From Candidatus Omnitrophota bacterium (GTDB lineage: Bacteria; Omnitrophota; Gorgyraeia; Gygaellales; Profunditerraquicolaceae): DNA of 64,000 nucleotides. The position numbers and the translations under genes were made by a program. How positions within the stretch are numbered: position 1 is the stretch's first letter; each line of letters begins with the position of its first letter. The stretch spans positions 3,188 to 67,187 of the forward strand of contig JBAZJY010000003.1 in NCBI GenBank assembly GCA_041651115.1, in the 5' to 3' direction. The notes below the pieces were generated by a model. It worked only from the letters and a program-made list of their open reading frames with translations. It searched no databases and was not told the origin of the DNA. Below, piece after piece: positions 17,126-51,344 of the stretch.

Positions 17126-17199
17126 CAGCCGCCGTTATTTTAACGTCCGGCGGCGCAGTCCCCTGCTTCTTAGGGGAAAACCACCGGATAACAAATTAG

Positions 17200-17273
17200 T
17201 GGCGGCGAGAGGATTTAAACCTCTGACTTATCGGGTATGAGCCGACTACTCTATCGGGCTGAGTTACGCCGCC
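17200..17273 (-). tRNA. tRNA with CAT anticodon (elongator Met or Ile2/lysidine type). No encoded CCA.
   Basis: Minus strand: GGCGGCG-TA-ACTC-AGCCCGATA-GAGT-A-GTCGG-CTCATAC-CCGAT-AAGTC-AGAGG-TTTAAAT-CCTCT-CGCCGCC-A. It folds as a cloverleaf with a 7/4/5/5 bp stem pattern. The D-loop has GA instead of GG18-19 and the T-loop has U56 instead of C56, an apparent A19-U56 covariation. About 125 nt upstream of tilS in the same orientation. Confidence 0.75.
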
Positions 17274-24103: not shown

Positions 24104-24886
24104 TCAGGATTTTTTGCGGATAAAATCCGCTATTTTCACCTCCAATTCAATCGGCAAGTCACGGCATTCCAAGAACTTAGCGACTTTGATCGCTTTAGAG
24201 TATTTGCTCAGGAATAATTTGCATGGCCGGCAGTCTTTAATATGCCTATCAAAGGCTTTTTTGCGGGTCTTGCCTAAAGAACCGCGGCTATAGTTATATA
24301 CGAACCCTTCCCAGATGCTGCAGCGGGGGTTTTCCTCTTCATTTTTCTCCAGTTTATCCTTAAAATAATCCTTTGTTTCCGCGGCAAGCATCATCTCTGC
24401 CCTGCGCAGCCTTGTCCTGAATGATGCTTCCTTAAGCTTTAAAACCGCAGCCGCGGCTTCACCCGGCATACGTTCAACATAGTGCAGCACCAAAGGCATA
24501 CGGTATTCAATCGGCAGCTGCTTGATCGCGTTATCAACCCGCTGCCGGAATTCGACATCAAGCGCCTGTTCATCAGGCATTTTTGACCAGTTAACGAACA
24601 GCCCGGAAAGCTCCTTCTTTGTCCCGTCTTTAAAACCGTCAATCAGCTTGAAGCGGCTTGAACGCTTTCGCAGATACATCAACGCTTCATTATAGGCGAT
24701 CTTATATATCCAGGTAGAAAGGTATTCGCGGTTCTTCAGCTCTTTAATGTTATCAATGATCTTCACGAATACGGACTGCACCACGTCTTCAGCATCAGTC
24801 TGATTCCTGGTAATGCTCAAGGCAAGGCCGTAGATCTTATTTTTATAGTTCTTGAAGATCTCTTCTATTTTGATTCGTGGCTTCAT
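24104..24886 (-). CDS. ECF-type sigma-70 factor fused to a C-terminal zf-HC2 anti-sigma domain
   Basis: Region 2 (DAEDVVQSVFVKIIDNIKELKNREYLSTWIYKIAYNEALMYLRKR). Region 4 (LPIEYRMPLVLHYVERMPGEAAAAVLKLKEASFRTRL). Then FDRHIKDCRPCKLF, the HxxxCxxC anti-sigma zinc finger. No TM segment. Confidence 0.7.
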   Translation of the reverse strand: MKPRIKIEEIFKNYKNKIYGLALSITRNQTDAEDVVQSVFVKIIDNIKELKNREYLSTWIYKIAYNEALMYLRKRSSRFKLIDGFKDGTKKELSGLFVNWSKMPDEQALDVEFRQRVDNAIKQLPIEYRMPLVLHYVERMPGEAAAAVLKLKEASFRTRLRRAEMMLAAETKDYFKDKLEKNEEENPRCSIWEGFVYNYSRGSLGKTRKKAFDRHIKDCRPCKLFLSKYSKAIKVAKFLECRDLPIELEVKIADFIRKKS

Positions 24887-24929
24887 AATACCTAATTATA
24901 TACCGCGTTAAAGAAAATGCTACAAAAAA

Positions 24930-24975
24930 AAGAGGGGACGTTTCTAAGGAAACGTCCCCTCTTTTTTAAGAGCTT
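24930..24975 (-). terminator. rho-independent terminator after the 533-aa tpsA gene
   Basis: Perfect hairpin AGAGGGGACGTTTC-(loop)-GAAACGTCCCCTCT flanked by an A-tract on one side and a T-tract on the other. On the minus strand it is followed by TTTTTTTT. Confidence 0.65.
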
Positions 24976-24979
24976 AGTT

Positions 24980-26581
24980 TTACTTTATGCCTTCAAGGAT
25001 CGGAAGCAAGCCCTGATGGCCTTTGATGTTGAGCGAACCTTCAATGAAGTCATAGGCGCCTTCTTCAAGGACAAATTCATCAAACCCGTTCATTGCCGAA
25101 GCAGTGATCGGATGATAGAAATATACCAATCTCGGGTCAACCGCATTATACTGCCAAACGGCAAACTGCTCGTTATAAGGCAAGCCTTCCTTGCCCCACA
25201 AATCGCTCGCAGAAACCCGGGGAGTAGGATCCGGCTCAGGCGGTAAATCCGGGTAGGTGGCAAAGCTTGAGGCAAAACGTATTACAGCATCATCAAAATC
25301 CTGATCCCCGCCGTTGGGATAATCCTCAAACCCATATATGACTCCAGTCTCTTTTACATGATCCTGTTTTGAACCGCTGTTAAGGGAAGATTCTTCATAC
25401 CAGATATAATCATTCTTCCCGTTCTGGAAAATACAATACAGCTTAAACTCAGTGGCATCTAAAGAAGTCTGACCTGTTCCAGAACCACTCTTGATATCTT
25501 TTCCCGGAAGAGCCTGAGCAAAAGGCACGCGCGTAAGCACACCATTATCATAATAGTAATAGCCGAGTTCAATCAATTTAAAACCCCTTGAACCGCTCAA
25601 ATACTCCCATGAAAACACGCCTAAGCTATCTATCTCGCTGCTGTTAAAGCCGGAAACCAGCATGCCGGTATTTGTGACGTCATCAATTATCGGGTCGCCT
25701 TCTGCCACCAACTCGATCACGCCGTTATGATTTACAAGGTTGATTGCCTGAATAACTCCGGTGTTATTAATCGCATAATCAAAAATACCATTAAGGATCT
25801 CAGCATTTAAAATAACTTTCCCGCCGTCAGCACGGATCACACCGGAATTTTTTATCGCACATTTCATACCCAGTACGTCATTCTTCACCACATCATCGAT
25901 GACTACGGATATCGTGCCCGCAGGATCAAGGTTAAGGGTCATTTTTTCTCCTGCTGCCAAAACTACGGTGCCGAGATCAGCAATGATCACCCCGCGGTTT
26001 TCAACTGCCTGCGACAAAAGGCAGACATAACCGCCGTTATTAACATTAATATTGCCTTCGTTAATAATGGAGCCGTCTACTCCGACCTTTTTTAAAAAAT
26101 TATACGCCCCAAGACGGAAATCCGCATCGCTAATCTCAAGGGTAGAAGCAACTAATGCGGGGGCGTCAACGCGTGAACCTGCGCCAAAGATTACACCATT
26201 AGGATTAACTACAAAGATCTTTGCGGTTTCAGAATAGAGCGTACCGAGGAAATTCGTAGGGCTGCCGTTTGCAATACGGTTTAAAACTGTTGAGCCTCCG
26301 TAAAAATTTACCGCTTGGCCTGAATCAGTATCAAAGGTACCCCAATTAATAATTGCGTTGGCTGAAGGATTAGTAATCACGACATCAACTTTAGTATCGG
26401 GAACAGTAGTGACAACAGCTAAACCACTGGTAATATCATCTCCACTTGCCCCGGACGGCAAACAAAACGCCAATGCAGGAGTAATTAAAGTAAGGATTAT
26501 TGCAGCTAAGATTCTTTTATGACGGGCCATTTTGAAGGTCTCCTTATAGTTATGAAAACGCTTTCTTTTTAGCACGAACAA
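24980..26581 (-). CDS. second TpsA-family exoprotein, 533 aa (TPS domain + distinct middle + shared C-terminal tail)
   Basis: Signal peptide. TPS domain (IINWGTFDTDSGQAVNFYGGSTVLNRIANGSPTNFLGTLYSETAKIFVVNPNGVIFG). Region through NHNGVIELVAEG collinear with the large TpsA. Last ~50 aa (VYFYHP...FDEFVLEEGAYDFIEGSLNIKGHQGLLP) about 60% identical to the large TpsA C-terminus. Confidence 0.75.
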   Translation of the reverse strand: MFVLKRKRFHNYKETFKMARHKRILAAIILTLITPALAFCLPSGASGDDITSGLAVVTTVPDTKVDVVITNPSANAIINWGTFDTDSGQAVNFYGGSTVLNRIANGSPTNFLGTLYSETAKIFVVNPNGVIFGAGSRVDAPALVASTLEISDADFRLGAYNFLKKVGVDGSIINEGNINVNNGGYVCLLSQAVENRGVIIADLGTVVLAAGEKMTLNLDPAGTISVVIDDVVKNDVLGMKCAIKNSGVIRADGGKVILNAEILNGIFDYAINNTGVIQAINLVNHNGVIELVAEGDPIIDDVTNTGMLVSGFNSSEIDSLGVFSWEYLSGSRGFKLIELGYYYYDNGVLTRVPFAQALPGKDIKSGSGTGQTSLDATEFKLYCIFQNGKNDYIWYEESSLNSGSKQDHVKETGVIYGFEDYPNGGDQDFDDAVIRFASSFATYPDLPPEPDPTPRVSASDLWGKEGLPYNEQFAVWQYNAVDPRLVYFYHPITASAMNGFDEFVLEEGAYDFIEGSLNIKGHQGLLPILEGIK

Positions 26582-26776: not shown

Positions 26777-28480
26777 CTAGAACGTTTTGGAAACTTCCGC
26801 CCAGGTTTGCACGCCTTTTCCGTCAGACGGCTTCTGGTCCAGAGGCCAGGCAAATTCTACGCGCGCGCTGAAATCTTCCGGTAAATTAATGCGCAAACCG
26901 CATCCCGCGCCTCTTAAGGTCTTATTCTTCTGTTCTCCTGCCTGCGGCCTTCTTAACCTGACATTTGCCCAGTCATAAAAAGTAACGATCCTTACCGCAT
27001 CATAGATTTTTGCCTTTGAAAGCGGGAATCCGATGGACTTCGGCACAAAATACGGCGGGATTGACCATTCCCAGGTCATGGAATAACCATTATCGCCTAC
27101 TGCTTCCGCAGCCGGATAACCGCGCACGTTGACAATGCTGCCGATCTGAAACTGTTCTGTAGAAGTAAGGATATTGGGGGTAAGCTGTATCTGGTTTTTC
27201 CAGTATATGGAAGAATCAAACGGCAGTTTCTGGCGATGTAAAAGGTTTATTATCTCTTTGGTAAACTCCCCGCCTGCGCCGTCGCGGGACGCGCGGGTAT
27301 CGCGCTTCTTCAAGCCTGCCATAATATCCGGGATGCCATAATCAAATTCTGCCATAAGCAGCGTGCGGCTTAACCTGGTGGTAACATCCCAGTCAAAGCC
27401 TATGCGGCTGATGCGCAGCCGGTCGCGGCTGGTTTCCTCTCCTGCCTGGAAATTAAAAACATCCTTGTAATCAAAACCAAGGTTTAAGACTAAATTGCTA
27501 TTCTCGTTATTGACTAATATCTGCTGGGCATAAACGCCATAGATCCGGCTCTTGCCGCGGACATTCAGGTCCTCAAATTCTTTTTGCAGCTTGATCCGTG
27601 AGTTTGCGGCTACAAAGCCGATATTCAGGTCTCTGGTTACCGGCAGGATATAACGGCCGCTCAACAAAACATAATTTTCGCCTTCCGAGCCCTGATAATT
27701 AACCTCCAGGCTGTCGTCAAAGCCTAAAAGGTTATTATGCGTAAGCGTAGTTTTAAAACGATTGTAATTAATATAGCGCGAGCCAAAATTATCCCAGGCA
27801 AGGCCCAAATGTATGGGCAGGCGGTCCTTTACCTCTACCAGCACATCGGTTGTCCCGGGGTCTTTGCCCGGAGCAATGACTGCCTTAGCGTTACGGTCTG
27901 CCTGTTCATTGATCAGGCTTAAGCCTTCGCGCAATTTTTCGTAATTAAAAGGCTGCCCCTTTTTAAGCGCGATCTTACGCTGATACAGGGAAGATTTAAA
28001 GAACCGGTTACCTTTTATTTCTACGTCGCCGGTAATTCCTTCCAGGACTTTTACTTCAAGGTTTCCGCTTTCAATTTTTTGCGGGGGCAGGTAGGCGCGG
28101 GAAGTAACAAAGCCTTTCCTGCGGTAGATATCGGTGATCATGTCTACCATCTTCTGCATATCCTTAAGCATAAGCTCTTTGTTTTTGAATTCCGCGGTAA
28201 CCGCATTGATCTCGTCTTCCGTAATAAGCGTAGCGCCGGTTACGGTAATACTCGTAACCATGACTTTTTCGGTTGACTCCGGGAGCCGGGGCTGCGCAGC
28301 CTGAGGCTCTTCCTCAATTTCCGCCTTTGGGCTGGGCTTATCAAACTTTTCCTGCAACCGTATTTCCTTGTCAATCTTACGCTGGGACGTAGAAATCGTG
28401 CCCGCCTCGTCAGCGGCATATACAAAACCAAACGCAAAGATAAAAACTAAACCTAAAAGAATCGCGGGCGCCTTTTTCAT
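26777..28480 (-). CDS. TpsB outer-membrane transporter (ShlB/FhaC family; POTRA domains + 16-strand beta-barrel)
   Basis: Start assigned to the internal ATG at 28480 (MKKAPAILLGLVFIFAFGFVYA signal peptide; AGGAGG SD 8 nt upstream; ATGA overlap with the upstream stop). POTRA-like VTSITVTGATLITEDEI...DIYRRKGFVTSRAYLPPQKIESGNLEVKVLEG. Ends ...WAEVSKTF with the aromatic terminal residue typical of OMPs. Confidence 0.8.
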   Translation of the reverse strand: MKKAPAILLGLVFIFAFGFVYAADEAGTISTSQRKIDKEIRLQEKFDKPSPKAEIEEEPQAAQPRLPESTEKVMVTSITVTGATLITEDEINAVTAEFKNKELMLKDMQKMVDMITDIYRRKGFVTSRAYLPPQKIESGNLEVKVLEGITGDVEIKGNRFFKSSLYQRKIALKKGQPFNYEKLREGLSLINEQADRNAKAVIAPGKDPGTTDVLVEVKDRLPIHLGLAWDNFGSRYINYNRFKTTLTHNNLLGFDDSLEVNYQGSEGENYVLLSGRYILPVTRDLNIGFVAANSRIKLQKEFEDLNVRGKSRIYGVYAQQILVNNENSNLVLNLGFDYKDVFNFQAGEETSRDRLRISRIGFDWDVTTRLSRTLLMAEFDYGIPDIMAGLKKRDTRASRDGAGGEFTKEIINLLHRQKLPFDSSIYWKNQIQLTPNILTSTEQFQIGSIVNVRGYPAAEAVGDNGYSMTWEWSIPPYFVPKSIGFPLSKAKIYDAVRIVTFYDWANVRLRRPQAGEQKNKTLRGAGCGLRINLPEDFSARVEFAWPLDQKPSDGKGVQTWAEVSKTF

Positions 28481-29238
28481 CGCTGTCCCTCCTTTTTGTC
28501 TAAACTTGTAATTTCGCTTTTTATGCAAACTTCAAGAATGTCACCTTTAATTTCTGTTGTTATTTCATCGGCTGCCAGCTTAACGCCTTTTTTCTCATAA
28601 GCCTGCGTAAGCGCGCCGGCTATCTGGTTGATATCGTCTTCAGTCAGCCAGTGCCCTTCAAGCGGCGGAATGATCTCCCCGATTTCTTTTTCATTGAGCA
28701 ATTCGGCGCCTTTTATGCTGATTTTTTTAACGAATACTTTGTCCGGGCTATTGATCTTTTGCCTTAGCGCCGCCTCTTCTTCAAGCAACTCCTCAAACCG
28801 CGCTATTTCGCCGGCGGTTTTTTGCGCAAAGCAAAGAGGTATACCGCCATCGATAATATTGGCAATCCTTTTTGCAAATAAAGCATAACCTACGGCAAGC
28901 GCGTTCAGGCAGGCGATCAAAGAAACTGCCGCGGCAATGTCTTTAACCAGCTTTATCAGGATATGATACTTGCGGGTAGTCATATCAATCATCATTTCAA
29001 TTGCCGTATTGAAGATCTCCGCCATAAATACGAGAGTGATGGTAATGCATAGCGCGATCAATTCAAGGCCGTTTAATCCAAAATAGACGCCCAAAAGGAA
29101 TGCCGCGACCCCGAGCATGAACATGATGCGCATATTGCGGTGATAAAGGAACAGATAGCCGACGCCTTGCGCTGCCAGCCGCATGCTTTGAAAAAATCCC
29201 GTGAAACGGAAGATATGCTTAAGTACCCGCTTTTTCAT
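28477..29238 (-). CDS. prokaryotic diacylglycerol/undecaprenol kinase (DgkA) fused to a C-terminal POTRA-like periplasmic domain
   Basis: N-terminal 125 aa has three TM helices and the DgkA signature EIFNTAIEMMID plus KDIAAAVSLIACLNALAVGY. C-terminal 125 aa (VFVKKISIKGAELLNEKEIGEII...DDINQIAGALTQAYEKKGVKLA...GDILEVCI) is collinear with the POTRA_2 region of the adjacent TpsB. Start TAATG overlaps the acsE stop. Stop overlaps the tpsB start. Confidence 0.6.
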   Translation of the reverse strand: MKKRVLKHIFRFTGFFQSMRLAAQGVGYLFLYHRNMRIMFMLGVAAFLLGVYFGLNGLELIALCITITLVFMAEIFNTAIEMMIDMTTRKYHILIKLVKDIAAAVSLIACLNALAVGYALFAKRIANIIDGGIPLCFAQKTAGEIARFEELLEEEAALRQKINSPDKVFVKKISIKGAELLNEKEIGEIIPPLEGHWLTEDDINQIAGALTQAYEKKGVKLAADEITTEIKGDILEVCIKSEITSLDKKEGQR

Positions 29239-30026
29239 TATTTTTTTCTATACGCGTCCAAATAAGAATCGCAATAAATATGCTTATTGAGGATCAATTC
29301 CGCGGTTATCGCTGAATCTACAAGCTCTTTATCTTTAGGATCCATTATAGCAGCATCTAAGCCATAAGCAACTGCCATTGTTAAGAACGTGCGGTTGATC
29401 AAACCACGCACACAGCTGCCCTGCGATACGTTGCTTAAGCCCAGGATTGTCTTGGGCGAAGGCTCGGAGATAATCTTAAATTCACGGATAGATTCCAGAA
29501 TGTCTAGCATCTGCGGCTGGGCAACGTTCACCGGCAGCACGATCGGATCAAGAAAAAGGTCATCAATAGCAAAACCCTGGTCAACGCAGGTAGAGACAAT
29601 AGTTGCTGCCAGTTCCAGGCGCTGGTCTTTATTCTGCGGAATGCCTTTTGCGCTTATGGTGATGCCGATCAGCCTGGCCTTATATTGCTTTGCCAACCCT
29701 ACCAAAACCTCTAATTTGTCCGGATCAGCAGTAGTAGAATTGATGATCGGCCTGCTCTTTATCACTTTTAAGCCGGACTCAATGACTTTAGGCTTGCTGG
29801 AATCAAGCGCCAGCGGCTTATCGGTTACTTCCTGTATGGTTTCCACCAGCCACTGAATATCGGAAACCGGGTCGCGCGACACCGGGCCGCAATTCACATC
29901 TAAAGCGTCTGCGCCTGCCTCAACCTGTTCAAGCGCGCATTTTTGTATGGCTGACTTATCGTGCTCCTTGATCGCTTTGCCGATATTCTGATACATCCCA
30001 TTGATCAGCTCGCCGATTATGAACAT
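29238..30026 (-). CDS. acsE: methyltetrahydrofolate:corrinoid/iron-sulfur protein methyltransferase AcsE (pterin-binding MeTr)
   Basis: MFIIGELINGM...DVNCGP...INSTTAD...LGLSNVSQ...IYCDSYL matches AcsE/MeTr. Start placed at ATG 30026 (AAGGAG SD 7 nt upstream) rather than the TTG at 30056, which lies inside a palindromic repeat. Confidence 0.75.
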   Translation of the reverse strand: MFIIGELINGMYQNIGKAIKEHDKSAIQKCALEQVEAGADALDVNCGPVSRDPVSDIQWLVETIQEVTDKPLALDSSKPKVIESGLKVIKSRPIINSTTADPDKLEVLVGLAKQYKARLIGITISAKGIPQNKDQRLELAATIVSTCVDQGFAIDDLFLDPIVLPVNVAQPQMLDILESIREFKIISEPSPKTILGLSNVSQGSCVRGLINRTFLTMAVAYGLDAAIMDPKDKELVDSAITAELILNKHIYCDSYLDAYRKK

Positions 30027-30040
30027 ATAGCTCCTTAGAT

Positions 30041-30117
30041 TAGGGACGGTTCTCAACTCAAAGCTAAAGTGTCCCCCCTACGGGGACACTTTACGATTGG
30101 CTTGAGAACCGTCCCTA
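30041..30117. repeat. ~76-bp nested palindromic intergenic element, copy 1 (REP/MITE-like)
   Basis: TAGGGACGGTTCTCA...GTGTCCCC-CCTAC-GGGGACAC...TGAGAACCGTCCCTA. 15-bp perfect terminal inverted repeats plus an inner 8-bp hairpin. A second copy with identical termini is at 61018-61093. Confidence 0.6.
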
Positions 30118-31073
30118 AACAGGTTATCGATATATTTTTTTATTTTCTCAATTGCGACCGGATGTCTCATCACCAGGATATCCGCGCCTGCCTGGACCAG
30201 CGCGGCTGCGGTTACAGCTTCCCAGGTCACGCCCCGCTCCATTTCCGGGCCCCATGCCGGCATTTCTGCAACAGGCAATTTCGCTTCTTTTGCCCGCCAT
30301 GATTCCTGACCCACAAAACAGATAAACGGGCTGGCAACGGTTTTATCTCCGGCTAAAGCTGCCAGACGGCTGCGTTCCATAATTGAATAAGCATACTCAA
30401 GCCCATACCCCAGGGCGCCGATCGTCGGGTTGATCACGATCCGCTCTAAGGGCAATCCCATATCTGAAATCAAGATATTCAACTGCTTGGCAATATTTAT
30501 GTCTATGGGCGATTCGGCAATAATGCTGTGGCCGTCAGCCAGGACCGCGGCTGCCAGCGTTTTATAATTATCCTGCACAGCGCTCCCGATCAAGCAGCGT
30601 TCACCTTTGGCAGCTTCACAACAGGCAGGCAAAACCTGATTATCTTTGGCATCATCCCCGCATCCGGTGATCACCAGCGGCACAGTTATCTTTTTCAATA
30701 GTTTTTTAATAAAGTCTGCTGCCTCGGCAGGCCCCTTATTGCCGGATTCAGGATGCGTTCCCTGTAATTTTACGCAAAGCAGCTCGGCCTTATATTCGCG
30801 CACGCATTTCTCCGCCCAGGCAAAGGGATCCTTTAGAACTTTTCCGTAGGCACAAGCTAATGCTTCCGGCCAGTCATTCGGAAGTATATCCCAAACCTCA
30901 TAAGCGATCACCGGCTTATTGGGGATCGCGCCTTCTGCGAATAAATACGGTAAGGCTTTTTGGCCGCCGACCTTGACCTGCCGGCTGCGTGAACCGCCCT
31001 CTTGCTTTGTCGCTCCGATAGTTACCGTAAAAACTTCACCCGACCATTTTTCCAGCATCAACTCAGTTGCCAT
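30078..31073 (-). CDS. acsD: corrinoid iron-sulfur protein small subunit AcsD (CdhD-like, TIM-barrel)
   Basis: 331 aa. WSGEVFTVTIGAT...VITGCGDDAKDNQVLPACCEAA... Collinear with CFeSP small subunits. The last ~13 codons overlap the palindromic element. Confidence 0.7.
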   Translation of the reverse strand: MATELMLEKWSGEVFTVTIGATKQEGGSRSRQVKVGGQKALPYLFAEGAIPNKPVIAYEVWDILPNDWPEALACAYGKVLKDPFAWAEKCVREYKAELLCVKLQGTHPESGNKGPAEAADFIKKLLKKITVPLVITGCGDDAKDNQVLPACCEAAKGERCLIGSAVQDNYKTLAAAVLADGHSIIAESPIDINIAKQLNILISDMGLPLERIVINPTIGALGYGLEYAYSIMERSRLAALAGDKTVASPFICFVGQESWRAKEAKLPVAEMPAWGPEMERGVTWEAVTAAALVQAGADILVMRHPVAIEKIKKYIDNLFRDGSQANRKVSP

Positions 31074-31815
31074 TCTTAATTTCCCCCCATATCTTGTTTA
31101 ACGCGCGCAAGCTTAAACTATCGGTTTCCAATTTCCATAACGAAGTTCCGTTAAGGCTGATTTTAGCAATCTCCTCATCCAAAGGCAGGTTACCTATATA
31201 TTGCAGGCCTAAGGCTTCAAGTTTTTCTTTTTCCATTTTGCCGTTCCAGCGGTTTATGATCAGCTGCTTGGCCCTAGCCTTAATGCCTAACTGCCCTACT
31301 AAAAGCGCGATCCTTGCCGCAGCCTTCAGCCCTACTCCGGTTGCGTCTGAAATCACCAACAGCACATCCGCGCTTCTTGTGGTGCGCCGCGAGAGATGTT
31401 CCAGGCCCGCCTCGTTATCCATAACCACAAAATCATAATCATCCGTCAGCTTGCTCATTACCGACCTTAAAATGTTATTCACGTAACAATAACAACCCGG
31501 GCCTTCGGGCTTGCCCATTGTAATAATATCAAAGCCGTCTTCTTCCTGAACTGCCGATTGCACGCGGTATTCAACAAAGCGATCCTTGGTCCATCCTTGC
31601 GGTATTTTATCCGGATGCGCCGCGACTTGATCAAGAATATCCCCGATGGTTTCTTTTACTTCCACGCCGAGGCTTTCCGCCAGGTTTGAATTCGGGTCGG
31701 CATCCACTGCCAAAACCGAACCCAAACCAGCCTCCTTGATTAACCTGACAAGAAGGGCAGCAATCGTAGTTTTACCCGTACCGCCTTTACCGGCAAGGGC
31801 GATCGTATAGCTCAT
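31063..31815 (-). CDS. CooC/AcsF-type P-loop ATPase (Ni-insertion accessory protein of CODH/ACS; MinD/ParA fold)
   Basis: IALAGKGGTGKTTIAALL deviant Walker A. 250 aa. Located inside the acs cluster. Confidence 0.7.
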   Translation of the reverse strand: MSYTIALAGKGGTGKTTIAALLVRLIKEAGLGSVLAVDADPNSNLAESLGVEVKETIGDILDQVAAHPDKIPQGWTKDRFVEYRVQSAVQEEDGFDIITMGKPEGPGCYCYVNNILRSVMSKLTDDYDFVVMDNEAGLEHLSRRTTRSADVLLVISDATGVGLKAAARIALLVGQLGIKARAKQLIINRWNGKMEKEKLEALGLQYIGNLPLDEEIAKISLNGTSLWKLETDSLSLRALNKIWGEIKNGN

Positions 31816-33731
31816 AATTTAACACTGGGGAATCTGGCCAGGTCCGTATGCGGAAAAAATAAAGCCGCCACATATTCATCCATATACGCCGGTTCAGTGG
31901 ATAATTCCAGGTAAGTCATTTTCCGGGCGATTTCTTCTGCCTGCCTCATTGCTTCATAAGATAAAATTATTGCCCTGGCCCCGGAAAGCGAGCTATTGCC
32001 GACAAAAACGATCCGGCTGCGCTGGATATCCGGCAGTAATCCGATGTTTATGGCGTTATTGATGTCAACTGAAGTGCCAAAGCCTCCGGCAATGAATAAT
32101 TTCTTCACGTCATTAAGGTCAATGTCCATGCGCCGCAGCAACACCAGCATAGCCGAATAGATCGCGGCCTTGGCGCGCTTAAGATTATCTATATCAACTT
32201 CCGTAATTACTATATCTGAAGTTGAATCCGCGTCTTCCTTAAATACCACGACGAATTCCCTGCCCATTTCCGACTGGCGGATACGCTTATGTTTAAGATC
32301 CTTGATCTTACCGCCCTTATCCAATATTCCGGCAGCCAGCATTTCCGCGATCAAGTCAATATAGCCTGAGCCGCAGATACCTTTGGCTTTCATCCCGCCG
32401 ATCGTCTCATAAGAAATGTTAAAATCTTTACCGGAAATCTTTACTTTTTGCACCGCGCCTTTTGTCGCGCGCATGCCGCAGCTAACACCGCTTCCTTCAA
32501 ACGCCGGCCCGGCAGACGCAGCACAACTGACCATAAAATCCCTATCTCCCAGGACGATCTCTCCGTTGGTGCCGATATCAATAAGGATGCTTAAATCATC
32601 CGCCTTATCTATGCCGCAGGACAATACTCCGCTGGTTACGTCTCCGCCCACATAACTTGCCACGCCCGGCACGCAGGTTAACAAGCCGCGCGGGTTTATT
32701 TTTACGCCGGCTTCTGTGGCGCGCAAAGGCGGGATAAAATTCGCTGCCGGCACATACGGCTCTTTCCTGATATAGGTCGGGTCAATGCGTAAAAGCAGAT
32801 GCATCATTGTGGTATTACCGGCGCACAACACGCAGGTAACGTCGTTTAAGTCTATGCTATGCTCGGCGATCAACTCCTGGCTCATACGGTTCATTTCTTC
32901 TGCCACGGCGCAATGCAGCTTTTCCAGGCCGTCCGGCTCGCGGGCATAGATTATGCGCGTGATCACATCGCTGCCAAAAGTCGCCTGCTTGTTATAAGCT
33001 ACCTTGGTGCCCAGGACCTTGCTTTTATTTAAATCCACAAGCTGGCCGGTAACCGTAGTTGTGCCGATATCAAAACACATCCCAAAATTCCTCTGTGAAG
33101 TATCTCCCGGCTCGATCTGAATGATCTCTGTCACGCCGTTACGCCTGGCAAGGGTTACCGTAATCTTCCATCCGGAAGAACGCAGCAACTCACTTAAATT
33201 GCGAATACTGACAATGCCGGTCTGGATGATCAAGGCATTGGGAAGCATTTTATTTATCTGCCGGTACAACCGCTCCAGATCGCTGACCTTATCATCCAGG
33301 TCAGGAGCCGGAAGCTCAAGATAGAACTTTGAAGTAAACGGAAGATTGCTAAATGCCTGCTCTGCCAGCCCGGGCTTTACCGGTTCAATATCCTCAATAT
33401 CGGAATAAGTATTTTTCAGCTCTTGATCGCTGACTTTTTCAAAATCCGCTGCCGATTCCGGAGGGATTTCAACTTCCAGATCGCCCTGGACTTCAGAAAG
33501 GCAGGCAAGATATACGCCCCTTGCTTTTTCTTCGCTGCTTAAAAGACCGGTTGCCTGCATCAGGACACTGCCTTTTTTCAAAACTACTTTGCAGCGGCCG
33601 CATACGCCGTCTCCGCCGCAGACTGAATTAAGCGGCACTCCCGCGGAAACCGCCGCGGAAAGAATGGTAGTATCCTTTTCCACTTCCACGGTTTTGTTAT
33701 AAGGATAGAATGTAACTTTGAATTTACTCAT
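31812..33731 (-). CDS. reductive activator of corrinoid Fe-S protein (RACo): N-terminal [2Fe-2S] ferredoxin + ASKHA-type ATPase
   Basis: Start assigned to ATG at 33731 (MSKFKVTFYPYNKTVEV...). CGGDGVCGRCKV plant-type ferredoxin cysteines. About 600 aa ATPase body. Gene order acsC-RACo-cooC-acsD-acsE. Confidence 0.7.
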   Translation of the reverse strand: MSKFKVTFYPYNKTVEVEKDTTILSAAVSAGVPLNSVCGGDGVCGRCKVVLKKGSVLMQATGLLSSEEKARGVYLACLSEVQGDLEVEIPPESAADFEKVSDQELKNTYSDIEDIEPVKPGLAEQAFSNLPFTSKFYLELPAPDLDDKVSDLERLYRQINKMLPNALIIQTGIVSIRNLSELLRSSGWKITVTLARRNGVTEIIQIEPGDTSQRNFGMCFDIGTTTVTGQLVDLNKSKVLGTKVAYNKQATFGSDVITRIIYAREPDGLEKLHCAVAEEMNRMSQELIAEHSIDLNDVTCVLCAGNTTMMHLLLRIDPTYIRKEPYVPAANFIPPLRATEAGVKINPRGLLTCVPGVASYVGGDVTSGVLSCGIDKADDLSILIDIGTNGEIVLGDRDFMVSCAASAGPAFEGSGVSCGMRATKGAVQKVKISGKDFNISYETIGGMKAKGICGSGYIDLIAEMLAAGILDKGGKIKDLKHKRIRQSEMGREFVVVFKEDADSTSDIVITEVDIDNLKRAKAAIYSAMLVLLRRMDIDLNDVKKLFIAGGFGTSVDINNAINIGLLPDIQRSRIVFVGNSSLSGARAIILSYEAMRQAEEIARKMTYLELSTEPAYMDEYVAALFFPHTDLARFPSVKL

Positions 33732-35065
33732 GCCATATTCTTTAAAAATGACGGCAGACCGGCAGCTTCCTTTGGCCCGACAATGATCTCCCATCCGGAT
33801 TTATCCTCCAGCTCGCCGCTCATCATTGCTACGTAACCGGGGATGATCAACCGTTTATGGGAAACCGTATCCTTGATCCCGAATTTATTCATTGAATCGG
33901 CGATCTTTTCAGGAGTGAATTTTTCCGCTGCCCAGGCAGTTAAAACCGACATGCCCTCCGTATCCACGCTAATGATATACGACGGGATCTTGCTGGCTTC
34001 AACTTCGCCTAAGACTGTAAAATAGGAAAGCGAAAAGTTAGTAGTCACTAAAACCGGAGATTTATCGTTTACGCTGCCTACCGGATAAACCTTGGGCTCG
34101 ATCTGCAGAGGTTTTTGCGGGTCAGTGTAGATATTCTGGCGTAAAGTTAAAAGCGCCAGCGCCTGCTGGGGCTCTGCGCCTTTAAGCAGCACAATACCGG
34201 CGTACTTAGCAATATAACCGGATGCTTCTATCGCCTCTTCATACGGGTCAACGGATGAAGTCATTGTCATTACCGGATACCCTAAACTGCGATTGGATTT
34301 TTTTAAGGCCTGCCTTCTTATTTGCGTCAGGTCCCAGATCTTTTCTGCCGGAGATTTTATGCCGGTATCTAAAACCAGTTCACTTACGCCCTGGTTATTC
34401 AATTCTTTTGTAATCGCGGTTAAACTATCCAGGTCATGGGCGCTTACCGCAAGCGCGGTATTGAATTCTTTGGCGAGCTTCCCCATTTCCGCGGCATTAG
34501 AGGCATTCGCATAACAAACCAGCGGCTTTCGCGCTTTAGACAATTCAAGCGCAGGCCGCAACGCGCTCAGATCTCCGGAGATCAGGGCAATGTTCAGCTT
34601 GGTCGCCTTTAAAACCAGCTCCGCTGCTTTAACAAACCTGTCTTTAGTGCTATTTTGCTTTATCGCCACGAGGTTCACATCCAGCTTCTGGCCCACGCGC
34701 TCAAATGCCAGGCGGTTTATCTTTTCCAGCTTCTTGCTGATCTCTCCGTCCGTTAAGCTGTCGTCAATGATAAAGCCAATGCCGCATGGCCGGTGGAATT
34801 TTTCTTCGTGCCGGAAAAGCACTGATTCATTGCCGATCTCAAGTTTGTTTTCGCCCTCGCCGACAGTAACCAACTTGATCGGCGGCTGCGAAGATGCCTC
34901 AAGGACTTTTTTTGCCTCTGCGCTTAAAAACGGGCATTTATCAATGCTCACTGCTTTTTTGGCAAGCTGCATTGCAAAGGCAAGGCAAGTGACAAAGCCG
35001 CATTCGCGGCAGTTGGTTTTCGGCAATAACTTGTAGATGTCCAATCCGGAAAGAGCCATGCGCAA
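33728..35065 (-). CDS. acsC: corrinoid iron-sulfur protein large subunit AcsC ([4Fe-4S] domain + TIM barrel + B12-binding Rossmann domain)
   Basis: MALSGLDIYKLLPKTNCRECGFVTCLAFAMQLAKKAVSIDKCP is the N-terminal CxxCxxxxC...C cluster motif of CFeSP large subunits. 445 aa. Confidence 0.8.
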   Translation of the reverse strand: MRMALSGLDIYKLLPKTNCRECGFVTCLAFAMQLAKKAVSIDKCPFLSAEAKKVLEASSQPPIKLVTVGEGENKLEIGNESVLFRHEEKFHRPCGIGFIIDDSLTDGEISKKLEKINRLAFERVGQKLDVNLVAIKQNSTKDRFVKAAELVLKATKLNIALISGDLSALRPALELSKARKPLVCYANASNAAEMGKLAKEFNTALAVSAHDLDSLTAITKELNNQGVSELVLDTGIKSPAEKIWDLTQIRRQALKKSNRSLGYPVMTMTSSVDPYEEAIEASGYIAKYAGIVLLKGAEPQQALALLTLRQNIYTDPQKPLQIEPKVYPVGSVNDKSPVLVTTNFSLSYFTVLGEVEASKIPSYIISVDTEGMSVLTAWAAEKFTPEKIADSMNKFGIKDTVSHKRLIIPGYVAMMSGELEDKSGWEIIVGPKEAAGLPSFLKNMA

Positions 35066-35076
35066 TCCTCCTAAGA

Positions 35077-35742
35077 TTACTTATTAATCAAGCTCGCAAA
35101 ATACCCCGCGCCAAATCCATTATCTATGTTGACTACCGTAACTCCCGGAGAGCAGCCGTTAAGCATTGAAAGCAATGCCGCAAGCCCCCCGAAACTCGCT
35201 CCATAACCGCAGCTCGTCGGAACGGCGATCACCGGCGAACTTACCAGGCCGCTGACTAAACTTGCCAGCGCGCCTTCCATACCGGCGACCACGACGATCA
35301 CCTTGGCCTTCTTTAAATAGTCCAGATTATGCATCAGCCTGTGCACGCCGGCAACCCCGACATCATAAAGCTTGACCGCGCGGTTACCCATTACTTCAAG
35401 CGTGACAAAGGCTTCATCGGCTATGGGAATGTCGGAAGTGCCCGCGGAAATAACTACCGCCAACCCCTTAGCGGGCCTTTTAACTGCGACAGAATATCCC
35501 AACCTGGCGGAAATATTATATTTTAGGCGAGGAAAACTTTTTTTCAGGTAAGCGTAAACCGGCTTATCCAGCCGGGTAAGTAACAAATCCTGCTTATTGG
35601 CAATAAGCTTGCGGCAAATTTCCCTGATATGCTCTCTTGTCTTACCAGCGCAATATATGACTTCAGGAAAACCCCTGCGCCTATGCCGGTCAATATCCAC
35701 TTTGGCAAAGCCAAGGTCGCAGAAACCAGTTTCAGAAACCAT
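35077..35742 (-). CDS. larB: LarB-like PurE-fold carboxylase (pyridinium-3,5-biscarboxylic acid mononucleotide synthase family)
   Basis: DLGFAKVDIDRHRRRGFPEVIYCAGKT N-terminal motif. Flavodoxin-like PurE fold (VVISAGTSDIP...VVAGMEGALASLV). 11 nt upstream of acsC. Confidence 0.55.
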   Translation of the reverse strand: MVSETGFCDLGFAKVDIDRHRRRGFPEVIYCAGKTREHIREICRKLIANKQDLLLTRLDKPVYAYLKKSFPRLKYNISARLGYSVAVKRPAKGLAVVISAGTSDIPIADEAFVTLEVMGNRAVKLYDVGVAGVHRLMHNLDYLKKAKVIVVVAGMEGALASLVSGLVSSPVIAVPTSCGYGASFGGLAALLSMLNGCSPGVTVVNIDNGFGAGYFASLINK

Positions 35743-36053
35743 TAAAATCCCCGGAAAATGATCACCAGTATTGCCGCGATGATTAAAGCGGACAGGATAT
35801 AAAAATCGTTAAAATAGAAGAAATCCCCGACCTTTTCTCCGAAACTCGCCTTCAGGAGAGCGCTACTCTTCTGCGCATGCGGTTTGGAATTCTTTTTGAA
35901 CTCTTCAACCTGATAGCGCTTGAACCTTAAATATACGCCGCCGATCTTATAGGCAGGCAAGATCTGGCTTTCAGCCAAGTCAATGACTTCCTTTTCCGAT
36001 ATATCAAGGAATAGCGACACTTCCCTTATAGTCAAAAGTTTTTCTTCAGACAT
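35742..36053 (-). CDS. small protein: N-terminal excisionase-type HTH (HTH_17) + C-terminal TM helix
   Basis: LLTIREVSLFLDISEKEVIDLAESQILPAYKIGGVYLRFKRYQVEEF HTH. C-terminal FYILSALIIAAILVIIF membrane anchor. Stop/start overlap with larB. Confidence 0.45.
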   Translation of the reverse strand: MSEEKLLTIREVSLFLDISEKEVIDLAESQILPAYKIGGVYLRFKRYQVEEFKKNSKPHAQKSSALLKASFGEKVGDFFYFNDFYILSALIIAAILVIIFRGF

Positions 36054-36183: not shown

Positions 36184-36696
36184 TTATTTTCCTACTTTTC
36201 CCGAAGCGACCCACGAATCAATCGCCTTCCTCTCGAATTTCCAGTTCTCGCCTTCCTTGAACCCGGGGACTTTACCGGAATTGGCCCATTCAAACACCGA
36301 ATTCAGGTCCACTTCAAGGTAGCGCGCCAGTTCTTCGGAGTTCAGGAAATCGTGCAGCATCAAACAGCGGCCTTCAAGTATTGCGCCTTCTGCGACGTTG
36401 AGTTTCGCCGGGTATATGTCTCCCTCAACGATCGCGCTGGGCAAGAGGGTCAATCTTTCTTTCGCGGTGATCTTACCTTTTACCCTGCCGCCGATAACGA
36501 TGTTGTCGCCGATAATGTCGGCGAAAACTATCGCCGAATTCCCGACGGTAAGGTTGCCTTTAGTATCAAGGTTGCCTTCAAACTTGCCGTTGATACGCAG
36601 GTTAACCGGGTCCTTAAAACTTAAGGTGCCCTGCATTGCCGCGTCTACATCAAGGACTTTCTCTTCCGGTTTCTTATTAAACGCCATTGCCCTCAC
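36184..36696 (-). CDS. bactofilin (DUF583) polymer-forming protein fused to a C-terminal excisionase-type HTH (HTH_17) domain
   Basis: Bactofilin beta-helix repeats (GNLTVGNSAIVFADIIGDNIVIGGRVKGKITAKERLTLLPSAIVEGDIYPAKLNVAEGAILEG). C-terminal LNSEELARYLEVDLNSVFEWANSGKVPGFKEG.NWKFERKAIDSWV HTH. Confidence 0.6.
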   Translation of the reverse strand: MRAMAFNKKPEEKVLDVDAAMQGTLSFKDPVNLRINGKFEGNLDTKGNLTVGNSAIVFADIIGDNIVIGGRVKGKITAKERLTLLPSAIVEGDIYPAKLNVAEGAILEGRCLMLHDFLNSEELARYLEVDLNSVFEWANSGKVPGFKEGENWKFERKAIDSWVASGKVGK

Positions 36697-51243: not shown

Positions 51244-51285
51244 ATTTGCTATATATTATAGCGGCTGCTCCAATATGTCAAGAAA

Positions 51286-51335
51286 AAAATAGGGACAGAG
51301 ACTACTTTTCCGTACGAAAAGTAGTCTCTGTCCCT
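51286..51335 (-). terminator. rho-independent terminator
   Basis: 19-bp perfect hairpin AGGGACAGAGACTACTTTT-CCGTACG-AAAAGTAGTCTCTGTCCCT. Flanked by an A-run upstream and a T-run downstream, so it could terminate in both directions. Lies after the 51345..51677 ORF. Confidence 0.65.
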
Positions 51336-51344
51336 ATTTTTATT

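What the first reader, a model, noticed from the sequence alone, without database searches (positions are those of the whole stretch)
28477..35742. Partial Wood-Ljungdahl methyl-branch operon (acsC-RACo-cooC-acsD-acsE) without CODH/ACS, running on into dgkA-POTRA and tpsB
The genes form one tightly packed co-directional string, with overlaps or gaps of 12 nt or less except at the two repeat-containing junctions. The order is the HTH-TM gene, larB, acsC, RACo, cooC/acsF, acsD, acsE, dgkA-POTRA, tpsB.

The corrinoid protein, its activator and methyltransferase are complete. acsA and acsB are not within roughly 30 kb on either side in this window.

Two readings fit. (a) CODH/ACS is encoded elsewhere and this is a split acs locus. 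(b) The CFeSP module serves another corrinoid-dependent methyl-transfer function. The apparent transcriptional fusion of a carbon-fixation module to a secretion transporter is odd and may mark a recent insertion junction. The palindromic element at 30041-30117 sits exactly there.
Basis: partly seen in the sequence, partly recalled or inferred. Interest (0 to 1): 0.5.

Follow-up and report, generated by a model that had tools for sequence, protein, structure and literature searches.

The report
Split Wood-Ljungdahl operon plus secretion island
This is the corrinoid-protein half of the acetyl-CoA (Wood-Ljungdahl) pathway of an uncultured Omnitrophota bacterium, kept apart from the CO-dehydrogenase/acetyl-CoA-synthase half as in about 47 related species, with a secretion-gene island inserted just behind it; it is ordinary for this phylum apart from one rare gene fusion.

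Summary
The gene string is real. On the minus strand it runs HTH/TM, larB, acsC, RACo, cooC/acsF-like, acsD, acsE, a DgkA-POTRA fusion and tpsB, with 1-11 nt overlaps or short gaps. No acsA/cooS or acsB lies in the 64 kb window, in the 10 kb to its right, or in the 4.5 kb to its left.

The window comes from a Candidatus Omnitrophota MAG. Forty-seven related species share the order gatAB…larB-acsC-RACo-(cooC)-acsD-acsE-dgkA-tRNA(CAT)-tilS, and none has acsB or cooS nearby. A second conserved locus, fhs-fchA-folD-metF-cooS-fdx-acsB-polA, carries the missing half. One relative MAG (GCA_028710715.1) holds both loci on different contigs. Reading (a), a split acs locus, is therefore supported. This genome's own acsB was not located.

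The TPS genes form an island of about 11.6 kb inserted between dgkA and the tRNA gene. Most relatives lack it. An in-frame deletion fused dgkA to a small secreted POTRA gene. This fusion has no counterpart among 1.84 billion representative proteins.

The palindrome at 30040-30118 is a REP-like repeat at the acsD/acsE junction, not at the island junction.

Interest is low to moderate.

The parts
35742..36053 (-). HTH_17 DNA-binding protein with a C-terminal transmembrane segment. It is the first gene of the tight string.
   Evidence: Pfam PF12728, E 7.6e-9. Conserved directly upstream of larB in the 47 related loci.
35077..35742 (-). larB (nickel-pincer cofactor biosynthesis carboxylase/hydrolase)
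   Evidence: NCBIfam NF033503, 281 bits against a cutoff of 175. PDB 7MJ0, 235 bits. Present upstream of acsC in 45 of 47 related loci.
33728..35059 (-). acsC, large subunit of the corrinoid iron-sulfur protein (CFeSP)
   Evidence: PF04060 + PF03599. PRK04165, 567 bits. Full-length match to PDB 2H9A/2YCL and 4DJD. CX2CX4CX16C motif seen in the translation. Identical to NCBI MFA5157033.1.
31812..33731 (-). RACo/AcsV, ATP-dependent reductive activator of the corrinoid protein
   Evidence: Fer2 + RACo_linker + Raco_middle + RACo_C_ter. PDB 3ZYY, 603 bits over residues 1-637.
31063..31815 (-). CooC/AcsF-type P-loop nickel-insertion ATPase
   Evidence: CbiA/AAA_31 Pfam hits. Best PDB match is CooC1 3KJE, 93 bits. 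GKGGTGKT P-loop and CYC motif seen in the translation. Occupies the position of acsF in complete clusters.
30078..31073 (-). acsD, small subunit of CFeSP. Its last ~12 codons are encoded by the 5' arm of the palindromic element.
   Evidence: PRK04452.1-2, 429 bits. The C-terminal tail FRDGSQANRKVSP is shared only with L007.
30040..30118 (.). REP-like palindromic element (37-nt arms, 5-nt loop) at the acsD/acsE junction. The acsD stop codon lies in the apical loop.
   Evidence: dG -59.9 kcal/mol, z -10.4. Second copy at 61017-61094. Orthologous copy in L007.
29238..30026 (-). acsE, methyltetrahydrofolate:CFeSP methyltransferase
   Evidence: PRK07535, 299 bits. PDB 2YCI, 277 bits and 2E7F, 263 bits. 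The true start is the ATG at 30026, preceded by AAGGAG.
28477..29238 (-). In-frame fusion of dgkA (three-helix membrane lipid kinase) with a small ShlB-type POTRA protein that has lost most of its signal peptide
   Evidence: PF01219 + PF08479. Alignment with the separate dgkA and POTRA genes of L183 and L003. AlphaFold model with pLDDT 88. It matches DgkA crystal structures (target TM-score 0.8-0.9) and the POTRA domains of CdiB, BamA and FhaC.
26777..28480 (-). tpsB, Omp85-family two-partner-secretion transporter
   Evidence: POTRA_2 + POTRA + ShlB. The ATGA start overlaps the stop of the fusion gene.
24980..26530 (-). Small TpsA-type exoprotein (TPS domain + DUF4114), with its own promoter-like site upstream
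   Evidence: PF05860, TIGR01901. TTGACA-17-TAAACT at 26615-26587.
24922..24971 (.). Bidirectional intrinsic-terminator-like hairpin. It is the first canonical terminator downstream of the acs genes.
   Evidence: 13-bp GC-rich stem flanked by A and U tracts, dG -37.7 kcal/mol, z -8.3.
24104..24886 (-). ECF-type sigma factor inside the island
   Evidence: Sigma70_r2 + r4_2.
19353..24035 (-). Large TpsA-type exoprotein (1560 aa)
   Evidence: PF05860, E 1.4e-29.
17199..17273 (-). tRNA with CAT anticodon. In relatives it lies 5-800 nt after dgkA; here it marks the far end of the island.
15271..16236 (-). tilS, the conserved downstream anchor of the syntenic block
   Evidence: Homologs lie downstream of dgkA/tRNA in relatives.

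Best explanation
Origin. The window comes from a Candidatus Omnitrophota genome in which the Wood-Ljungdahl genes lie in two conserved loci.

Locus 1 (this window). It encodes the methyl-transfer module:
- CFeSP (AcsC/AcsD).
- Its ATP-dependent reductive activator, RACo.
- A CooC/AcsF-type nickel-insertion ATPase.
- The methyl-H4folate:CFeSP methyltransferase AcsE.
- These genes sit in a long co-directional housekeeping array: gatAB-ctpA-…-tsaD-mgtC-bactofilin/HTH-HTH/TM-larB-[acs genes]-dgkA-tRNA(CAT)-tilS.

Locus 2 (elsewhere). In relatives it reads trmD-rplS-…-fhs-fchA-folD-metF-cooS-fdx-FAD oxidoreductase-acsB-TPR-polA. It supplies the methyl-branch enzymes and CODH/ACS.

How it works (inferred from the characterised Moorella and Carboxydothermus enzymes).
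- AcsE methylates Co(I)-CFeSP.
- RACo re-reduces inactive Co(II).
- Methyl-CFeSP donates the methyl group to the A-cluster of AcsB, which is encoded at the other locus.

The secretion genes.
- An island of about 11.6 kb was inserted in this lineage into the short dgkA-tRNA spacer. It carries a mini-POTRA gene, tpsB, two tpsA genes, an ECF sigma gene and three small genes.
- A deletion of about 18 codons then removed the dgkA stop codon and the hydrophobic core of the mini-POTRA signal peptide.
- The result is a DgkA::POTRA fusion. Its POTRA domain still faces the periplasm, because the C-terminus of DgkA is periplasmic, but it is now membrane-tethered.
- Given the overlapping stop and start codons, tpsB is probably read through from the acs operon. 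The first canonical terminator is at 24922-24971.

The hairpin. The 78-nt hairpin at the acsD/acsE junction is a dispersed REP-like element, not an insertion scar.
For: Gene identities.

Taxon: the best AcsC matches are Omnitrophota MAGs. The window's AcsC equals NCBI MFA5157033.1, named 'Candidatus Omnitrophota bacterium', on a 357-kb contig.

Synteny:
- 47 species-representative loci share the array.
- 45 of 47 have larB.
- 32 of 39 have cooC.
- None has AcsB or CooS within a median of ±10 kb.

Phylogeny: a concatenated AcsC+RACo+AcsD+AcsE NJ tree makes the window-type loci one clade. That clade is sister to Omnitrophota with the complete cooS-acsB-acsC…acsE cluster.

The complementary locus:
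- 26 loci read fhs…cooS…acsB and are followed by TPR-polA rather than acsC.
- NCBI names these AcsB proteins Omnitrophota.

Co-occurrence:
- GCA_028710715.1 has cooS-fdx-FADox-acsB-TPR-polA on contig JAQTTO010000004.
- The same MAG has larB-FmdE-acsC-RACo-cooC-acsD-acsE-dgkA-POTRA-tpsB on contig JAQTTO010000006.
- Their protein accessions lie 218 and 221 apart in the two accession series.
- A second AcsC/AcsB pair, MFA5356426 and MFA5357067, lies 641 apart.

Literature: Seymour et al. 2023 (PMC10066038) report partial and complete WLP (AcsB-E ± CooS) in these Omnitrophota families.

Island:
- In relatives the tRNA(CAT) gene follows dgkA by 5-800 nt, or 2 kb in L045, and tilS follows it.
- In the window, 11.6 kb intervene.

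Fusion:
- Alignment with the separate 132-aa DgkA and 132-aa signal-peptide POTRA proteins of L183 and L003.
- The fold model and its matches.
- The same fusion ORF occurs on two assembled contigs.

Hairpin family.
Against: - The acsB/cooS locus of this particular genome was not found. Only about 78 kb of it could be read, so co-occurrence rests on relatives at about 72% AcsC identity.
- cooC is missing from 7 of 39 related clusters. Its presence is therefore not an absolute marker of ACS.
- No expression data exist. Co-transcription of acsE, dgkA::POTRA and tpsB is inferred from the 1-nt and 4-nt overlaps and from the lack of a canonical terminator.
- The promoter scan is no better than chance (18 sites found against 17.9 expected).
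- The TPS module occurs in two separate sub-branches of the tree: the window on one, L003 with L183 on the other. 'Insertion' cannot therefore be told apart from 'ancestral with many losses'.
- Both contigs carrying the fusion may derive from the same or related samples.
Confidence: 0.8

Rival explanations
1. CODH/ACS has been lost from this genome. The retained CFeSP-RACo-AcsE module serves another corrinoid-dependent methyl transfer, for example methyl-group shuttling for biosynthesis.
For: - No acsB or cooS in about 78 kb of this genome.
- Seymour et al. describe Omnitrophota with incomplete WLP variants.
- cooC is absent from 7 of 39 related clusters, which could signal relaxed need for Ni insertion in some lineages.
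Against: - A relative with the same locus layout carries cooS and acsB on another contig.
- A second AcsC/AcsB pair is linked by accession proximity.
- 26 'acsB without acsC' loci exist, attributed to Omnitrophota, and they are the natural complement.
- The window keeps an intact CooC/AcsF-type ATPase, whose only known clients are CODH and ACS (established knowledge).
- AcsC, AcsD, AcsE and RACo are full-length and conserved.
Confidence: 0.1
2. The DgkA-POTRA 'fusion' is not a functional protein. It would be an assembly or sequencing artefact, or a fresh inactivating deletion, that happens to stay in frame.
For: - The fusion is unique. Among the best 150 of 5117 hits in 1.84 billion representatives, no other protein covers both halves.
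- Relatives have two separate genes.
- The deletion removes the signal-peptide core of the POTRA protein.
Against: - The identical 253-aa ORF is called on two contigs.
- The frame is kept, and the downstream ATGA coupling to tpsB and its AAGGAGG site are intact.
- DgkA has an odd number of helices, so its C-terminus is periplasmic (knowledge of E. coli DgkA). The POTRA domain therefore stays in its native compartment.
- Both halves fold confidently (pLDDT 88).
- Other membrane-anchored versions exist: P0395 (GT2 + POTRA) and P0389.
Confidence: 0.12
3. The TPS genes are transcriptionally independent of the acs genes. Their adjacency is only a consequence of insertion into a permissive spacer next to a tRNA gene, with no regulatory link.
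For: - In L183 and L003 the POTRA and tpsB genes are separated by about 40-75 nt.
- The small tpsA has a promoter-like site (10 of 12 matches) at 26615-26587.
- An ECF sigma gene lies inside the island.
- A hairpin follows tpsB (z -3.6).
Against: - In the window, acsE/dgkA::POTRA overlap by 1 nt and dgkA::POTRA/tpsB overlap by 4 nt.
- No sigma-70-like site and no canonical terminator lies between them.
- tpsB at least has no room for its own promoter outside coding sequence.
Confidence: 0.3

Closest known systems
acs gene cluster of Moorella thermoacetica / Carboxydothermus hydrogenoformans (cooC-acsA-acsB-acsC-orf7/RACo-acsF-acsD-acsE)
   Same: - The order acsC-RACo-cooC/acsF-acsD-acsE is identical.
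- The proteins match the solved CFeSP (2H9A, 2YCL, 4DJD), RACo (3ZYY, 4C1N) and MeTr (2YCI, 2E7F) over their full lengths.
   Different: - acsA and acsB are detached, and in relatives lie in a second locus with the methyl-branch genes.
- The module is preceded by larB and an HTH/TM gene and followed by dgkA.
- The gene order of the reference clusters is from my own knowledge, not tested here.
Complete WLP cluster of other Omnitrophota (fhs-fchA-folD-metF-cooS-fdx-FADox-acsB-acsC-RACo-cooC-acsD-acsE)
   Same: - The same proteins, at 55-62% AcsC identity.
- It is the sister clade in the concatenated tree.
   Different: There the cluster is unbroken. In the window's clade it is cut between acsB and acsC, and the 3' half sits in a different housekeeping array.
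Wood-Ljungdahl variants described for Omnitrophota (Seymour et al. 2023, PMC10066038)
   Same: The families concerned, for example Profunditerraquicolaceae (the family of relative UBA1562 = L003), are reported to encode AcsB-E with or without CooS.
   Different: In the passages and supplements searched, the paper scores gene presence and I found no description of locus structure. The split, the larB/dgkA neighbours and the TPS island were not found there. The paper was not read in full.
Two-partner secretion systems (FhaB/FhaC, CdiA/CdiB, ShlA/ShlB)
   Same: - TpsB with two POTRA domains plus a ShlB barrel.
- Two exoproteins with an N-terminal TPS domain.
   Different: - An extra single-POTRA protein is encoded directly upstream of tpsB, and here it is fused to DgkA.
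- An ECF sigma gene lies between the two tpsA genes.
REP / BIME-type intergenic palindromes of bacteria
   Same: - A palindrome of about 78 nt with conserved ends, found in multiple copies.
- It lies in short gaps between co-directional genes.
- The predicted hairpin is very stable.
   Different: - Only two copies occur in about 76 kb.
- It overlaps coding sequence, supplying the last 12 codons and the stop of acsD and the stop of ruvA.
- No RAYT transposase was looked for.

Membership tests
Corrinoid iron-sulfur protein (AcsC/AcsD, CFeSP) | Large subunit with an N-terminal [4Fe-4S] CX2CX4CX16C motif, a TIM-barrel (CdhD) domain and a C-terminal corrinoid-binding domain | tested here: met
   PF04060 + PF03599. 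PRK04165, 567 bits against a cutoff of 306. Residues 1-441 align to 2H9A residues 1-441. The motif C-RE-C-GFVT-C-x16-C is seen in the translation.
Corrinoid iron-sulfur protein (AcsC/AcsD, CFeSP) | Small TIM-barrel subunit AcsD encoded alongside | tested here: met
   PRK04452.1-2, 429 bits against a cutoff of 280.
RACo (reductive activator of corrinoid enzymes) | [2Fe-2S] ferredoxin domain, linker, middle domain and C-terminal ASKHA ATPase domain | tested here: met
   All four Pfam domains found. 3ZYY matched over residues 1-637, 603 bits. The AcsV NCBIfam model scores 692 bits, below its strict 'exception' cutoff of 800.
Methyl-H4folate:CFeSP methyltransferase (AcsE) | Pterin-binding TIM barrel of the MeTr type | tested here: met
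   PRK07535, 299 bits against a cutoff of 259. 2YCI, 277 bits, full length.
Complete Wood-Ljungdahl carbonyl branch in one genome | AcsB (ACS), with or without AcsA/CooS (CODH), in the same genome as CFeSP | not testable with these tools
   - Absent from the window and its flanks.
- Shown for relative GCA_028710715.1.
- Implied for a second MAG by accession proximity.
- The rest of this genome could not be read.
CooC/AcsF Ni-insertion ATPases | MinD-type P-loop (deviant Walker A) plus a CXC metal-binding motif | tested here: met
   GKGGTGKT and GCYC in the translation. The best solved relative is CooC1 3KJE. Whether it serves ACS (AcsF) or CODH (CooC) was not resolved.
LarB | Equivalog-level match to the NaAD carboxylase/hydrolase of nickel-pincer cofactor synthesis | tested here: met
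   NF033503, 281 bits against a cutoff of 175. 7MJ0, 235 bits. LarC and LarE were not found in the window.
Two-partner secretion system | Omp85-type TpsB with POTRA domains and a ShlB barrel, plus a cognate exoprotein with a TPS domain | tested here: met
   PF08479 + PF07244 + PF03865 in 26777-28480. PF05860 in 24980-26530 and in 19353-24035.
Prokaryotic diacylglycerol kinase (DgkA) | Fold of about 120 aa with three transmembrane helices and an N-terminal surface helix | tested here: met
   PF01219, E 4.5e-26. The model superposes on E. coli DgkA structures 3ZE3, 3ZE4 and 3ZE5 at 1.5-2.2 Å rmsd, with target TM-scores of 0.8-0.9. Substrate and catalytic residues were not examined.
REP-like repeated extragenic palindromes | Multiple dispersed copies of an imperfect palindrome in intergenic positions | tested here: inconclusive
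   Two copies in the window (30040-30118 and 61017-61094) and an orthologous copy in L007. The genome-wide copy number is unknown.

The most novel reading that the evidence does not exclude
The ~130-aa signal-peptide + single ShlB-type POTRA proteins may be a so far undescribed periplasmic accessory component of a subclass of two-partner secretion systems. They are encoded directly upstream of tpsB in L003, L183 and the window, and have many homologs among representative proteins. In this organism the accessory would have been captured as a DgkA::POTRA fusion. That fusion tethers the accessory to the inner membrane and places tpsB under the acs operon.
Probability: 0.2. Interest if true: 0.45.

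Novelty: new member of a known kind. Interest (0 to 1): 0.22.

Why it matters
- For annotators of Omnitrophota and similar streamlined genomes: a 'partial' Wood-Ljungdahl cluster can be one half of a conserved two-locus arrangement. Counting it as an incomplete pathway from a single contig would mislead metabolic reconstructions of MAGs.
- The dgkA-tRNA(CAT) spacer is a variable insertion site in this clade.
- The DgkA::POTRA fusion is a clean natural example of a secreted protein converted into a membrane-anchored one by loss of its signal-peptide core.
- None of this changes what is known about the pathway itself.

Tried and rejected
Locating this genome's own acsB:
- I looked up AcsB hits that share the window's data sources (P0014, P0032, P0069). 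All came from other samples and carried complete clusters.
- I compared 'longest contig' lengths between the AcsC and AcsB hit lists. No contig was shared.
- I checked NCBI accession proximity to MFA5157033. No AcsB in the MFA515… range appeared among the 20 examined.
- The 357-kb NCBI contig could not be displayed.

Literature:
- The supplementary tables of Seymour et al. that I opened gave no usable per-genome acs table.
- A 2026 preprint on complete Omnitrophota genomes does not mention the pathway.

Ideas rejected:
- The palindrome as an island scar. It lies one gene upstream of the junction, has a second copy 31 kb away, and has an orthologous copy in a relative without the island.
- Classical tRNA-3'-end integration. 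The island lies on the 5' side of the tRNA gene, and no integrase was found.
- A deep paralog origin for the window-type acsCDE. The tree shows one clade sister to the complete-type Omnitrophota.

Full report
**Observation.**

All ORFs of the region lie on the minus strand.

| Gene | Coordinates | Main evidence |
|---|---|---|
| HTH_17 protein with a C-terminal hydrophobic tail | 35742-36053 | Pfam PF12728 |
| LarB | 35077-35742 | NF033503, 281 bits; PDB 7MJ0 |
| AcsC | 33728-35059 | PRK04165, 567 bits; full-length match to the solved CFeSP large subunit 2H9A/2YCL |
| RACo | 31812-33731 | Four RACo domains; 3ZYY, 603 bits |
| CooC-type ATPase | 31063-31815 | Best solved relative CooC1 3KJE |
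| AcsD | 30078-31073 | PRK04452.1-2, 429 bits |
| AcsE | 29238-30026 | 2YCI, 277 bits |
| DAGK_prokar + POTRA_2 protein | 28477-29238 | PF01219 + PF08479 |
| TpsB | 26777-28480 | POTRA_2 + POTRA + ShlB |

Reading the junctions gives:
- TAATG at acsE/dgkA.
- ATGA at dgkA-POTRA/tpsB and at acsC/RACo.
- A 17-nt gap between larB and acsC.
- A 51-nt gap between acsD and acsE.
- A 246-nt gap between tpsB and the next gene.

The packing claim therefore holds. Three corrections apply. The stated coordinates omit two genes named in the text. The acsE start is the ATG at 30026.

**Absence of CODH/ACS nearby.**

I took AcsB and CooS from Omnitrophota loci where they are present (Pfam-confirmed). tblastn with them finds nothing in the window.

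The identical sequence lies on a 198-kb metagenome contig, ENA ERZ27247363 k141_297481. Reading 10 kb beyond the right edge shows only housekeeping genes. So does the 4.5 kb to the contig end on the left.

**Whose genome.**

A scan of one genome per species with AcsC returned mostly Candidatus Omnitrophota MAGs, with at most 73% identity. The window's AcsC is identical to NCBI MFA5157033.1, named 'Candidatus Omnitrophota bacterium', on a 357-kb contig. Relative L003 (UBA1562) belongs to Profunditerraquicolaceae, class Velamenicoccia/Koll11, according to the tables of Seymour et al. 2023.

**Comparative synteny.**

I annotated the 80 loci by BLAST against the window's proteins. Forty-seven species share this order:

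gatA-gatB-ctpA-deacetylase-tsaD-mgtC-bactofilin/HTH-HTH/TM-larB-acsC-RACo-(cooC)-acsD-acsE

- larB is present in 45 of 47.
- cooC is present in 32 of 39.
- None has acsB or cooS within a median of 10 kb on either side.

Other Omnitrophota carry an unbroken cluster: fhs-fchA-folD-metF-cooS-fdx-FAD oxidoreductase-acsB-acsC-RACo-cooC-acsD-acsE.

A neighbour-joining tree of concatenated AcsC, RACo, AcsD and AcsE puts all window-type loci in one clade. That clade is sister to the complete-cluster Omnitrophota. The break between acsB and acsC is therefore one old event, not a recent accident of this genome.

**Where the other half is.**

A metagenome scan with AcsB, annotated the same way, gave two classes:
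- 30 loci where acsC follows acsB.
- 26 loci where fhs…metF-cooS-fdx-FADox-acsB is followed by TPR protein-polA-glgA-coaE-rho-rpmE-prfA (gene content).

These 'acsB without acsC' proteins are about 80% identical to each other. Their many database relatives are named Omnitrophota.

One MAG links the two classes directly. In GCA_028710715.1:
- Contig JAQTTO010000004 carries cooS-fdx-FADox-acsB-TPR-polA.
- Contig JAQTTO010000006 carries gatAB…larB-FmdE-acsC-RACo-cooC-acsD-acsE-dgkA-POTRA-tpsB.

The protein accessions of the two genes lie 218 and 221 apart in two accession series. A second AcsC/AcsB pair (MFA5356426 and MFA5357067) lies 641 apart.

Seymour et al. (PMC10066038) independently score AcsB-E, with or without CooS, in these families.

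I conclude that reading (a), a split locus, is correct for the clade and very probably for this genome. I could not find this genome's own acsB, so about 10% remains for loss of ACS.

**Mechanism.**

This section rests on established knowledge of the Moorella and Carboxydothermus enzymes, not on tests made here.
- AcsE transfers the methyl group of methyl-H4folate to Co(I) of CFeSP.
- RACo uses ATP to re-reduce Co(II).
- CooC/AcsF-type ATPases load nickel into CODH/ACS.
- Methyl-CFeSP delivers the methyl group to the A-cluster of AcsB.

The window supplies all of the first set in intact form. The AcsC iron-sulfur motif, the RACo [2Fe-2S] cysteines, and the CooC P-loop and CXC motif are all visible in the translations.

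**The secretion genes.**

In relatives, acsE is followed by a 125-146-aa dgkA. BLAST detects it in 15 of 30 loci, and similar-sized ORFs sit in the same position in others. A tRNA(CAT) gene comes 5-800 nt later (2 kb in L045), followed by tilS.

In the window, about 11.6 kb separate dgkA from that tRNA (17199-17273). This stretch holds:
- The POTRA segment.
- tpsB.
- A 516-aa TpsA (TPS + DUF4114).
- An ECF sigma gene.
- A 1560-aa TpsA.
- Three small genes.

Only L003 and L183 share the POTRA-tpsB pair at this site. They sit on a different branch of the tree from the window. The module is therefore either a repeated insertion into a permissive spacer or an old feature lost many times. No integrase is present.

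The junction, however, is at the 3' end of dgkA.

**The fusion.**

L183 and L003 encode a 132-aa (L183) or 128-aa (L003) DgkA. A separate POTRA protein of 132 aa (L183) or 134 aa (L003) follows, with a signal peptide ending in CFA|Q.

The window's 253-aa protein aligns to the two joined end to end. About 18 residues are missing: the dgkA stop codon, and the n-region and hydrophobic core of the signal peptide. The PLCFAQK motif is kept.

An AlphaFold model (pLDDT 88) shows the following:
- A surface helix and three long helices.
- A low-confidence linker of about 10 residues.
- One further helix.
- A β-α-β-α-β-β domain.

The N-terminal half superposes on E. coli DgkA (rmsd 1.5-2.2 Å). The C-terminal half matches the POTRA domains of CdiB, BamA, FhaC and TpsB4.

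DgkA has three membrane helices and a cytoplasmic N-terminus (knowledge of the E. coli enzyme). The fused POTRA domain therefore remains periplasmic.

An exhaustive search of 1.84 billion representative proteins found many separate DgkA proteins and many separate 'mini-POTRA' proteins. It found no other protein covering both halves. Two other anchored variants turned up: a GT2 membrane glycosyltransferase with a C-terminal POTRA (P0395), and P0389.

The fusion ORF is called on two assembled contigs. It is rare and topologically sensible, but its functional consequence is unknown.

**The palindrome.**

The arms at 30040-30076 and 30082-30118 are 86% complementary. As RNA the region folds to -59.9 kcal/mol, z -10.4.

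- The 5' arm encodes the last ~12 residues of AcsD, a tail shared only with L007.
- The acsD stop codon lies in the loop.
- The 3' arm ends 7 nt before the acsE ribosome-binding site.

A second copy lies between ruvA and scpB at 61017-61094. An orthologous copy sits at the same acsD/acsE junction in L007.

It is a dispersed REP-like element. A role as an mRNA stabiliser or attenuator within the operon is plausible but untested.

**Transcription.**

The consensus promoter scan is uninformative: 18 sites against 17.9 expected. No canonical terminator lies between acsE and tpsB.

- A hairpin without a U-tract follows tpsB (z -3.6).
- A textbook bidirectional terminator lies at 24922-24971, after the small tpsA (z -8.3).
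- The small tpsA has a promoter-like site with 10 of 12 matches.

Read-through from the acs genes into tpsB is therefore likely but unproven.

**Verdict.**

- The arrangement is a conserved property of a large Omnitrophota clade. It is consistent with published metabolic reconstructions.
- The only unusual item is the DgkA::POTRA fusion and the little-known mini-POTRA family behind it.
- Interest is 0.22. Novelty class: new member of a known kind.

Noticed in passing
L046 6161-9988; also L170, L140, L167; P0015, P0016, P0019, P0022, P0023: AcsB of several Omnitrophota is interrupted by an intein with a LAGLIDADG homing endonuclease. The protein grows to 1170-1276 aa from 725 aa. The insertion lies between the CdhC domain and the C-terminal domain.
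   Followed up: partly
window 17199-17273 and 15271-16236: The tRNA called tRNA-Met(CAT) is conserved just upstream of tilS throughout the clade. It may in fact be tRNA-Ile2, the substrate whose CAU anticodon TilS converts to lysidine.
   Followed up: no
window 61017-61094 (second copy); L007 14690-14770: A REP-like palindrome family with ends TAGGGACGGTTCTC…GAGAACCGTCCCTA. At 61 kb the element supplies the TAG stop codon of ruvA. In L007 it occupies the same acsD/acsE position as in the window.
   Followed up: partly
L183 14412-14810; L003 ~7174-7575; P0378, P0379, P0384, P0399 and others: A family of ~130-aa proteins, each with a signal peptide ending in CFA|Q, a helix and a single ShlB-type POTRA domain. 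It is encoded directly upstream of tpsB wherever context was available. I could recall no description of such a TPS accessory.
   Followed up: partly
P0395 (416 aa), P0389 (156 aa): Two other proteins carry the mini-POTRA on a membrane anchor: a GT2 membrane glycosyltransferase fusion, and a protein whose N-terminus resembles DgkA helix 3.
   Followed up: no
L183 7406-7828, and the ~400-nt larB-acsC gaps in L002-L004 and others: Many relatives have a 140-aa FmdE-domain gene between larB and acsC. The window lacks it, so larB and acsC are only 17 nt apart.
   Followed up: no
window 36184-36696: A bactofilin + HTH_17 fusion protein is 75-84% identical among the closest ~40 related species and 55-65% in the more distant ones. 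In most loci that makes it more conserved than the neighbouring housekeeping genes.
   Followed up: no
window 51285-51341: A perfect 26-bp inverted repeat with a 5-nt loop, flanked by A and T runs. It lies just inside the 5' end of a + strand ORF (51246-51653) that diverges from the 925-aa TPR gene on the minus strand. It shares the TAGGGAC motif with the REP-like element.
   Followed up: no
window 45228-48464: A 1078-aa ORF on the plus strand with no Pfam match at E ≤ 0.001.
   Followed up: no
L173-L176, L110, L104 (AcsB loci): The 'other half' of the pathway is also embedded in a conserved housekeeping array: trmD-rplS-rnhB-…-fhs…acsB-TPR-polA-glgA-coaE-rho-rpmE-prfA-prmC-aroA.
   Followed up: partly
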